A stretch of DNA of 64,000 nucleotides from Escherichia coli. Its GTDB lineage: Bacteria; Pseudomonadota; Gammaproteobacteria; Enterobacterales; Enterobacteriaceae. The notes under the pieces are model-generated. The model made no database searches, was not told where the DNA came from, and saw only the letters and a list, made by a program, of their open reading frames with translations. The stretch lies in NCBI GenBank assembly GCA_902500055.1, contig GCA_902500055.1_4131.1. One strand, written 5' to 3'. The position numbers and the translations under genes are program-made. Positions 59,806 through 60,309 of this stretch are shown piece after piece. Numbering within the stretch: the stretch's first letter is position 1; every line of letters begins with the position of its first letter.

Positions 59806-60309
59806 TTATTTTACTTTGACAGTACAGGTTACCTTTTTACCTTGGAACTCGACTTTTTGAACATATGAAACGTTACCCAAACGATTAACGAATGATTCCA
59901 TTGCATTAATATTTGCTTGAATTACTGATGCATTAGTTCCACGTCCTGAAGTTTTCATTACAATATGTACATGTTTTCCTTCATCAAGGAATTTTTCAGC
60001 ACTTTTTGCTTTAATCTGCAAATCATGCTCTTGTGTACCAAAGTTGAATTGAATCTCTTTAATACTCACGGCATTTTGTCGTTGTTTTTTAAGAGAAGCC
60101 TTTTCAGCTTGCTTCAACTCATATTTGTATTTGTTAAGATCTGTAATTTTGACAGCAGGTTCATCACCTGCACCAATAACCACCAAATCCAATCCTTGAT
60201 TTTCTGCTAAAGTAAGTGCTTTAGAGATTGCCATGACCTCACTTGCACCTTCCGTAACAAGACGTACAGTTTTTGCGGTGATTTCGTTATTGGCAATAAT
60301 AGATTTCAT
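59806..60309 (-). CDS. infC: translation initiation factor IF-3 homolog
   Basis: Collinear with bacterial IF-3 over both domains: VRLVTEG...GLDLVVIG...[11 protein letters not shown]...[37 protein letters not shown]...RG. Confidence 0.8.

What the first reader, a model, noticed from the sequence alone, without database searches (positions are those of the whole stretch)
59806..60309. Phage-encoded translation initiation factor IF-3 homolog
The 167-aa product is collinear with bacterial IF-3 across both N- and C-terminal domains and sits behind its own consensus promoter at 60354..60382. A phage copy of IF-3 could alter start-codon or leader discrimination in favour of phage mRNAs; the 806-aa ORF at 50271..52691 appears to have a very short leader.
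Basis: partly seen in the sequence, partly recalled or inferred. Interest (0 to 1): 0.75.

Follow-up and report, generated by a model that had tools for sequence, protein, structure and literature searches.

The report
Jumbo-phage copy of initiation factor IF-3
The gene is a real, intact, conserved copy of bacterial translation initiation factor IF-3 carried by an E. coli jumbo phage, but it has been annotated in this phage group for over a decade, and its role in infection remains untested.

Summary
ORF 59806..60309 (-) encodes a 167-aa, two-domain IF-3. It matches Pfam IF3_N and IF3_C, and scores 110 bits on TIGR00168 infC (cut-off 60). An AlphaFold model matches ribosome-bound IF3 with TM 0.70-0.75.

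A perfect TTGACA-17-TATAAT promoter lies at 60382..60354. It is followed by a leader of about 38 nt, a GGAG Shine-Dalgarno (SD) sequence and an ATG start.

The window is an Asteriusvirus jumbo phage, 99.4% identical to phAPEC6. This gene is already annotated as IF-3 in phAPEC6, 121Q, GAP32, CBB and Sharanji. It belongs to PHROG 9787 and is mentioned in papers from 2017, 2021 and 2025. It is therefore already known, although no experiment on it was found.

Points added here:
- The gene is under strong purifying selection (dN/dS 0.04-0.08).
- It has no close bacterial donor: 32% identity to E. coli IF3.
- It has been inherited vertically inside a fixed block, Dda helicase - two small ORFs - IF3 - ClpS-like - KTSC - topoisomerase II. 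The block holds down to about 36% IF3 identity.
- The phage clade keeps the residues for 30S binding and tRNA-elbow contact. It has lost the two arginines (E. coli R99, R131) that contact the start codon, and also E134.

The parts
59806..60309 (-). IF-3 homologue CDS (167 aa): IF3_N residues 7-71, Lys-rich linker about 58-80, IF3_C residues 81-165
   Evidence: AlphaFold pLDDT 83; Foldseek top hits are all IF3
60354..60382 (-). Sigma-70 consensus promoter TTGACA-17-TATAAT. The -35 hexamer overlaps the stop codon of the upstream 64-aa ORF. The predicted transcription start is near 60347.
   Evidence: the hexamers are kept while the spacer diverges in Turkey5 and in a distant metagenomic relative. 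The start site is inferred, not mapped.
60320..60323 (-). Shine-Dalgarno GGAG, 10 nt before the ATG at 60309
   Evidence: GGAG is conserved in RaK2, GAP32 and XbC2
59247..59792 (-). ClpS-like protein (181 aa). It starts 13 nt after the IF-3 stop and has its own AAGGA SD, so it is probably co-transcribed.
   Evidence: Pfam ClpS 24.7 bits, cut-off 23; PHROG 15940; the neighbour is conserved
58630..59175 (-). KTSC-domain protein (181 aa), the third member of the conserved trio
   Evidence: Pfam KTSC 6.3e-14; conserved; identity tracks that of IF3
60379..60573 (-). Conserved 64-aa ORF of unknown function immediately upstream of IF-3
   Evidence: PHROG 15132, 1.3e-37; an ORF of about 64-70 aa sits in the same place
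56249..56273 (-). First terminator-like hairpin (10-bp stem plus T8) downstream of the IF-3 promoter. It is the possible end of a transcription unit of about 4.1 kb.
   Evidence: inference only

Best explanation
The gene encodes a functional IF-3 paralogue that the phage makes early in infection and that acts on the host's 30S subunits. Host RNA polymerase with sigma-70 transcribes it from a consensus promoter. It is translated from a normal SD-led AUG. Because it lacks the AUU start that puts E. coli infC under IF3 autoregulation, its synthesis should not be throttled by IF3 levels. [quoted passage not shown] It should therefore raise or replace cellular IF3 activity (subunit anti-association and recycling, and initiation-complex formation) for phage mRNAs, which in this window are canonical SD-led AUG messages. 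Its codon-inspection surface differs from that of typical bacterial IF3, so its proofreading stringency is probably altered; the direction of the change is unknown. Shown here: homology, fold, intact domains, purifying selection, deep vertical conservation, promoter and SD sequence features. Inferred: early timing, 30S binding, escape from autoregulation and the effect on initiation.
For: Family and fold.

Functionally tested positions that are kept (E. coli numbering):
- R25 -> R16, invariant and needed for fidelity (PMC9723500).
- R66 -> K54.
- Y75 -> Y63; the Y75N mutation (allele infC362) relaxes start-codon selection (PMC7145577).
- K110 -> K100; K110L does not bind 30S.
- D106, F117, G121, G132 and R133 are also kept.

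Selection: dN/dS is 0.04-0.08 in the pairs that are not saturated.

Vertical inheritance: a conserved gene block was confirmed around every IF3 relative whose contig was long enough to show its neighbours, and IF3 identity tracks that of the Dda helicase and KTSC genes.

Promoter: perfect consensus, one of 21 strand-biased consensus sites, with hexamers conserved over a diverged spacer.

Start codon: ATG in all seven relatives checked.

Phage leaders are canonical.
Against: No experiment on any phage IF-3 was found, and authors say the function is unknown (PMC11895373). The clade lacks basic residues at E. coli R99 and R131. These correspond to Thermus Arg91 and Arg123, which H-bond to A+1 and to U+2/+4 of the start codon (PMC5037330). 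It also lacks E134, so canonical proofreading cannot be assumed. Only 4 Arg remain, against 15 in E. coli IF3. Promoter use, timing and 30S binding are predictions. The AUU autoregulation argument rests on textbook knowledge of E. coli infC and was not tested here.
Confidence: 0.6

Rival explanations
1. It is a re-specialised or competitive IF-3. It binds host 30S in place of host IF3 but inspects the start codon differently, because the codon-contacting arginines are gone. It thereby changes which mRNAs or start sites are accepted, or interferes with host translation.
For: In the jumbo-phage clade, 23 of 28 representatives lack R/K at E. coli position 131, against 11 of 122 outside it. 25 of 28 lack R/K at position 99, against 49 of 122. 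None of the 28 has E134, against 97 of 122. Other arginines became lysine, so charge was kept and AT bias alone does not explain the loss. These positions contact A+1 and U+2/+4 of the start codon in 30S pre-initiation complexes. A related Vibrio phage has a ribosomal protein S21 gene inserted right after its IF-3.
Against: Position 99 is S, T or G in many IF3s outside the clade too. The phage's own genes look canonical: SD plus ATG and leaders of 24-58 nt, so no special class of phage mRNA is evident. The count is not corrected for phylogeny, and the neighbour-joining tree has no support values. The effect of these substitutions was not found in the searchable literature.
Confidence: 0.22
2. 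Its main role is not start-site selection but keeping ribosomes available. It would split idle 70S or hibernating ribosomes, recycle subunits, or release RbfA from new 30S subunits in a cell whose own gene expression is being shut down.
For: IF3 has these activities in E. coli; RbfA release needs K110 and Y75, both kept here (PMC7145577). Close relatives also encode an S30EA/HPF-type ribosome hibernation protein (PMC11895373). Iyer et al. suggest ribosome rescue or support of phage translation (PMC7824862).
Against: Nothing in the sequence separates this from the main explanation. It is a sub-case of a functional 30S-binding IF3, not an alternative fold or target.
Confidence: 0.13
3. It is a decaying or neutral passenger gene picked up from a host, with no role in infection.
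For: None beyond the general frequency of host-derived genes in jumbo phages.
Against: Both domains are intact. dN/dS is 0.04-0.08. It holds a fixed genomic position across phages that share only about 36% IF3 identity. It has only 32% identity to E. coli IF3. No relative above 38% identity was found in 185,579 species genomes by pattern scan. Its own promoter is conserved.
Confidence: 0.02

Closest known systems
IF-3 genes of Rak2-like jumbo phages (phAPEC6 gp165c, 121Q gp47, GAP32_313, CBB_318, RaK2_00153, Sharanji WNN14575; PHROG 9787)
   Same: It is the same gene. The protein is 100% identical in phAPEC6, 121Q, Sharanji, SP27 and slurp01, and 52-69% identical in RaK2, GAP32 and XbC2, at the same genomic position. 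PHROG 9787 matches at 6e-71 over its full length.
   Different: Nothing material. Some records still label it hypothetical (RaK2, PBECO4 KC295538, the Salmonella SD phages).
Bacterial InfC / IF-3 (TIGR00168; E. coli P0A707, Thermus 5LMN chain X)
   Same: Two alpha/beta domains joined by a Lys-rich helical linker, with fold TM 0.70-0.75. R25, K/R66, K72, Y75, K94, E95, D106, K110, F117, G121, G132 and R133 are kept.
   Different: Only 32% identity to host IF3. It has no N-terminal tail like that of E. coli IF3. R99 -> N, R131 -> S and E134 -> G as a clade-wide signature. It has an ATG start rather than AUU, is not followed by rpmI-rplT, and is embedded in a phage replication-gene block.
Other phage-encoded translation components (the ribosomal protein S21 gene in Vibrio phage 2.275.O; the ribosome-targeting early proteins reported for phiKZ)
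   Same: These are phage genes aimed at the host small subunit and at initiation. S21 sits directly next to the IF-3 orthologue in Vibrio phage 2.275.O. The comparison with phiKZ is made by the Sharanji authors.
   Different: They are different proteins and families. The Sharanji authors report no homologue of the phiKZ factor in that closely related phage.
IF-3 of Agrobacterium phage Atu_ph07 and of metagenomic huge phages (LR7565xx)
   Same: Phage-borne two-domain IF-3 (33-42% identity). In Atu_ph07 it lies next to a Clp gene (ClpX) and near topoisomerase.
   Different: In the neighbour-joining tree, Atu_ph07 falls outside the 32-member clade that shares the ClpS-KTSC synteny. It starts with GTG. 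It may be a separate acquisition or a much older split.

Membership tests
Translation initiation factor IF-3 (InfC; PF05198 + PF00707; TIGR00168) | N-terminal IF3_N domain and C-terminal IF3_C domain, both complete and in order | tested here: met
   IF3_N residues 7-71 against profile 2-69 of 70, 58.9 bits (cut-off 26.9). IF3_C residues 81-165 against profile 1-84 of 86, 51.8 bits (cut-off 34.8).
Translation initiation factor IF-3 (InfC; PF05198 + PF00707; TIGR00168) | Score above the curated equivalog cut-off | tested here: met
   TIGR00168 scores 110.4 bits against a cut-off of 60.
Translation initiation factor IF-3 (InfC; PF05198 + PF00707; TIGR00168) | IF3 fold: two alpha/beta domains joined by a long helical linker | tested here: met
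   AlphaFold pLDDT 83, with helix 58-79 as the linker. Foldseek gives 5lmn_X E 3e-13 and TM 0.70, and 9ss1_F3 TM 0.74.
Translation initiation factor IF-3 (InfC; PF05198 + PF00707; TIGR00168) | Residues shown by mutation to be needed for 30S binding or fidelity: K110, Y75, R25, R66 | tested here: met
   K100, Y63, R16 and K54 in two independent alignments. Their roles come from PMC7145577 and PMC9723500.
Translation initiation factor IF-3 (InfC; PF05198 + PF00707; TIGR00168) | Basic residues that contact the start codon (Thermus Arg91 and Arg123 = E. coli R99 and R131) | tested here: not met
   N89 and S121 in this protein. 25 of 28 (position 99) and 23 of 28 (position 131) clade representatives are non-basic. 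The contacts are described in PMC5037330. R133 and G132 are kept. This is not a strict family-defining feature: 11 of 122 other IF3s also lack a basic residue at 131.
Translation initiation factor IF-3 (InfC; PF05198 + PF00707; TIGR00168) | Binds 30S, prevents subunit association and proofreads initiation | not testable with these tools
   This needs biochemistry or genetics; no published test was found.
Bacterial infC gene organisation | AUU (non-canonical) start codon that gives IF3 autoregulation, as known for E. coli infC | tested here: not met
   ATG at 60309 with GGAG 10 nt upstream. ATG in all seven phage orthologues checked. That AUU is the E. coli state is established knowledge and was not re-tested.
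Bacterial infC gene organisation | infC-rpmI-rplT operon context | tested here: not met
   The downstream genes are ClpS-like and KTSC; the upstream genes are two phage ORFs and the Dda helicase.
PHROG 9787 (phage translation initiation factor) | Full-length match to the family profile | tested here: met
   6e-71, residues 1-167 against profile 1-167 of 168.

The most novel reading that the evidence does not exclude
The IF-3 of Rak2-like jumbo phages is not a spare copy but a re-specialised initiation factor. It has kept the 30S and initiator-tRNA contacts but lost the codon-contacting arginines (E. coli R99, R131) and E134. It is always encoded with a ClpS-like adaptor and a KTSC protein, as a fixed early module that displaces or removes host IF3 and resets start-site proofreading on host ribosomes during infection.
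Probability: 0.15. Interest if true: 0.65.

Novelty: already known. Interest (0 to 1): 0.3.

Why it matters
Phage-encoded translation factors are one of the few routes by which a virus could reprogram bacterial ribosomes, and no phage IF-3 has been characterised. This particular gene is not a discovery. The analysis does turn a vague annotation into testable statements:
- The factor is ancient, vertically inherited and strongly constrained.
- It should escape IF3 autoregulation.
- It differs from typical cellular IF3 at the surface that touches the start codon.
- It travels with a ClpS-like adaptor and a KTSC protein.

A reporter assay and a 30S-binding assay in E. coli would settle whether it is a helper, a replacement or a competitor.

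Tried and rejected
- A recent host donor is rejected. Identity to E. coli IF3 is 32%. The word-indexed search returned almost only phage-clade proteins. The exhaustive search found only 6 representatives below 1e-30. The species-genome scan found nothing above 38%. That scan is pattern-limited, and the alignment-based version failed for lack of a conserved stretch.
- Leaderless or short-leader phage mRNAs are rejected for this window.
- Phage initiator tRNA: the intron-split tRNA(CAU) in the window has a paired 1:72 and no three G-C pairs in its anticodon stem, so it is not an initiator.
- I recalled the fidelity allele infC362 as R131P. The literature says it is Y75N, so that argument was dropped.
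- The Arg-scanning mutagenesis of the IF3 C-domain that I recall (R99, R112, R116, R129, R131, R133, R147, R168) could not be verified in the library. It is not used as evidence.
- The phAPEC6 and PA5oct papers contain nothing on IF-3 or its expression.
- AT-bias as the sole cause of the Arg losses is rejected. The other conserved arginines became lysine, whereas positions 99 and 131 became S, T, N, V or A.

Full report
**1. What is there**

The minus-strand ORF 59806..60309 starts with ATG and encodes 167 aa.
- It matches both IF-3 domains essentially end to end: IF3_N at 5.8e-16 and IF3_C at 8e-14.
- It scores 110.4 bits on the NCBIfam equivalog TIGR00168 infC, whose cut-off is 60.
- It matches solved E. 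coli and Thermus IF3 chains at about 3e-17.
- An AlphaFold model built on 29 homologues has mean pLDDT 83. It shows two alpha/beta domains joined by a long helix at residues 58-79.
- All significant Foldseek hits in the PDB are IF3, including ribosome-bound chains: 5lmn_X at TM 0.70 and 9ss1_F3 at TM 0.74.

TTGACA (60382..60377), a 17-nt spacer and TATAAT (60359..60354) form the only 12-of-12 match in the 15 kb scanned. The -35 hexamer overlaps the stop codon of the upstream 64-aa ORF.

**2. Where the window comes from, and what is already known**

The region is 99.4% identical to Escherichia phage vB_EcoM_phAPEC6 (genus Asteriusvirus) and 98% identical to 121Q, Sharanji, slurp01 and others. 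The protein is 100% identical in many of these records. It is annotated there as translation initiation factor IF-3: phAPEC6 gp165c, 121Q gp47 and the infC gene of Sharanji. It is a full-length member of PHROG 9787, "translation initiation factor" (6e-71).

The published record is as follows:
- The CBB paper (2017) lists IF-3 homologues in CBB, GAP32, 121Q, PBECO4 and Rak2 (PMC5259590).
- Iyer et al. (2021) mention IF3 and KTSC genes in group 2.2 jumbo phages, and suggest ribosome rescue or support of phage translation (PMC7824862).
- The Sharanji paper (2025) says the function in phages cannot be stated (PMC11895373).
- A phrase search for phage-encoded IF3 or infC found no paper.

The existence of the gene is therefore known; its function is open.

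**3. Gene anatomy**

If the promoter is used, transcription should start near 60347. That gives a leader of about 38 nt with GGAG at 60323..60320, 10 nt before the ATG.

The window holds 21 sites within one mismatch of TTGACA-N17-TATAAT, against 2.4 expected by chance. All 21 are on the coding strand. The intergenic ones sit about 24-58 nt ahead of SD-led ATG genes. This is the pattern expected for early genes read by host sigma-70 polymerase.

The hexamers upstream of IF-3 are kept in ph0011, Ecwhy_1 and Turkey5. In Turkey5 the spacer is completely different. A distant metagenomic relative (the P0063 contig) also has TTGACA-17-TATAAT. RaK2, GAP32 and XbC2 have near-consensus promoters at the same place.

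The ClpS-like gene starts 13 nt after the IF-3 stop. No terminator-like hairpin on this strand appears before 56273..56249. The transcript may therefore cover five genes; this is inference.

**4. Residues**

Two independent aligners, HMMER and MAFFT, give the same mapping to E. coli IF3.

Positions with experimental backing that are kept:
- R25 -> R16 and R66 -> K54. These make the initiator-tRNA elbow contacts, and R25 is invariant (PMC9723500).
- Y75 -> Y63. The Y75N mutation (allele infC362) is critical for start-codon selection (PMC7145577).
- K110 -> K100. K110L does not bind 30S.
- D106, K94, E95, F117, G121, G132 and R133 are also kept, and are near-invariant across about 150 representatives.

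Positions that are lost:
- R99 -> N89, R131 -> S121 and E134 -> G124.
- The cryo-EM study of Thermus 30S pre-initiation complexes reports that Arg91 H-bonds to A+1 of the start codon. It also reports that Arg123 contacts U+2 and the +4 base, with Gly124 and Arg125 nearby (PMC5037330).
- A +1 offset between the printed chain sequence and the paper's numbering fits all five named residues. These are therefore E. coli R99, R131, G132 and R133 (my mapping).

Other conserved arginines (112, 116, 129, 168, 66) have become lysine, as expected in a 33% GC genome. The uncharged residues at 99 and 131 are therefore not just compositional drift.

**5. Evolution**

- dN/dS is 0.042 against ph0011 and 0.073 against Ecwhy_1. 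It stays at or below 0.26 in more distant, saturated pairs.
- Identity to host IF3 is 32%.
- An exhaustive HMMER search of 1.84 billion representatives found 5660 hits, but only 6 below 1e-30.
- A pattern scan of one genome per bacterial species found only ordinary IF3s at 35-38%.
- A neighbour-joining tree, without support values, places the window protein in a 32-member clade. The clade includes RaK2, GAP32, XbC2, Vibrio phage 2.275.O and unnamed metagenomic sequences.

Seven relatives outside Asteriusvirus had enough flanking sequence to read their gene neighbourhood, and each matches the same block as far as its contig reaches. These were RaK2, GAP32, XbC2, Vibrio 2.275.O and the contigs of P0041, P0028 and P0063. 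The block is (DHFR, RNase H) - Dda helicase - ORF of about 190 aa - ORF of about 65 aa - IF3 - ClpS-like - KTSC - topoisomerase II. In P0063, the ORF in the ClpS position has no ClpS Pfam hit. The P0090 contig shows the upstream half of the block but ends one partial gene after IF3. The P0067 contig, at 1.2 kb, was too short to tell.

IF3 identity tracks that of Dda and KTSC across these loci:

| Relative | IF3 % | Dda % | KTSC % |
|---|---|---|---|
| RaK2 | 69 | 78 | 69 |
| GAP32 | 57 | 69 | 70 |
| Vibrio 2.275.O | 38 | 46 | 40 |
| P0041 contig | 36 | 44 | 35 |

This points to one ancient acquisition followed by vertical descent.

The residue signature belongs to this clade:

| E. coli position | Jumbo-phage clade (28) | Other IF3s (122) |
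|---|---|---|
| 131 not R/K | 23 | 11 |
| 99 not R/K | 25 | 49 |
| 134 is E | 0 | 97 |

For position 131, Fisher p is 2e-14, not corrected for phylogeny.

In Vibrio phage 2.275.O, a ribosomal protein S21 gene is inserted between IF3 and the ClpS-like gene. In Atu_ph07, IF3 lies beside ClpX.

**6. Mechanism**

My best-supported reading is a working IF-3 made early and in quantity, which binds host 30S subunits.

E. coli infC uses an AUU start so that IF3 represses its own translation; this is established knowledge and was not tested here. The phage gene uses AUG, so it should be exempt. If the phage factor discriminates as the host factor does, it would also depress host infC translation and progressively replace host IF3.

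The altered codon-facing surface leaves open whether it proofreads more loosely or differently. That is the main rival explanation. A role centred on ribosome availability is a sub-case: splitting 70S or 100S ribosomes, or releasing RbfA, which needs K110 and Y75. A neutral passenger gene is excluded by the conservation data.

**7.

The 806-aa reading of 50271..52691 depends on an ATG at 52691 that has no SD. An in-frame ATG at 52664 follows GGAG at a 7-nt spacing, and matches the 797-aa annotation in phAPEC6. A hairpin with a T-run at 52741..52721 separates it from the upstream gene. There is no evidence for a short or absent leader.

**8. Verdict**

The gene is already known and annotated, so the finding is ordinary as a discovery.

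The parts that may be new are the clade-wide loss of the codon-contacting arginines and E134, and the strict IF3-ClpS-KTSC linkage. They are hypotheses for experiment, not demonstrated functions.

Caveats:
- The tree has no support values.
- Promoter use, timing and 30S binding are predictions.

Noticed in passing
window 18124..18427 (-), intron core 18167..18481 by Rfam: A group I intron (RF00028, 99 bits) interrupts a tRNA gene with anticodon CAT. The 5' half GGGCCATTAGCTCACGGTGGTTAGAGCAAACGACTCAT is followed by the intron and then by AATCGTTAGGTACTGTGTTCGACTCACAGATGGCTCA. ARAGORN missed the gene. The tRNA is of the elongator Met or Ile2 type, not an initiator. The intron is present in TH47, Turkey5 and Klebsiella phages such as Muenster (where it is unannotated), but most Asteriusvirus records have an uninterrupted tRNA-Met, so it looks like a mobile, polymorphic intron. 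The ORF 17398..18102 just downstream has no Pfam hit; Turkey5 annotates an HNH homing endonuclease under the match.
   Followed up: partly
window 58630..60309 (-); L005 3015..3260; L010, L011, L025: IF3, a ClpS-like gene and a KTSC-domain gene form a fixed trio in all related jumbo-phage loci examined, down to about 36% IF3 identity. Vibrio phage 2.275.O has a ribosomal protein S21 gene inserted after IF3. Atu_ph07 has ClpX beside its IF3.
   Followed up: partly
window 59247..59792 (-): The ClpS-like protein passes the Pfam cut-off only narrowly (24.7 bits against 23) and has an N-terminal extension of about 70 aa. In the HMMER alignment to E. coli ClpS, the positions I recall as N-degron pocket residues are changed (D36 -> P, H66 -> N, M40 -> A) while D35 is kept. 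It may therefore not read classical N-degrons (the residue roles are from memory).
   Followed up: partly
window, whole minus strand (e.g. 5254..5282, 6617..6645, 25681..25709, 28088..28116, 42175..42203, 60354..60382): There are 21 near-consensus sigma-70 promoters (6 perfect) against 2.4 expected by chance, all on the coding strand. The intergenic ones have stereotyped leaders of 24-58 nt carrying SD sequences. This suggests heavy reliance on unmodified host RNA polymerase for this gene block.
   Followed up: partly
window 60365..60376 (-), inside the promoter spacer: A palindrome, GAAC-TAAT-GTTC, lies directly after the -35 hexamer. The GAAC/GTTC arms are kept in ph0011 and Ecwhy_1 while the four central bases differ; the palindrome is lost in Turkey5. 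It could be an operator or chance.
   Followed up: no
window 52662..52691 (-): The mechanical 806-aa ORF probably starts 27 nt further in, at ATG 52664 (GGAG 7 nt upstream), giving 797 aa as annotated in phAPEC6. The protein has no significant Pfam match.
   Followed up: yes
window 60550..60578 (-): A second 11-of-12 promoter-like site (TTGACA-17-TATGAT) overlaps the start codon of the conserved 64-aa ORF (PHROG 15132). It would start transcription inside that ORF. Its function is unknown.
   Followed up: no
window 15729..22023 (-): A cluster of five intact tRNA genes (Thr-TGT, Asn-GTT, Ser-GCT, Arg-TCT, Gly-TCC) is interspersed with small ORFs, in addition to the intron-split tRNA(CAU).
   Followed up: no
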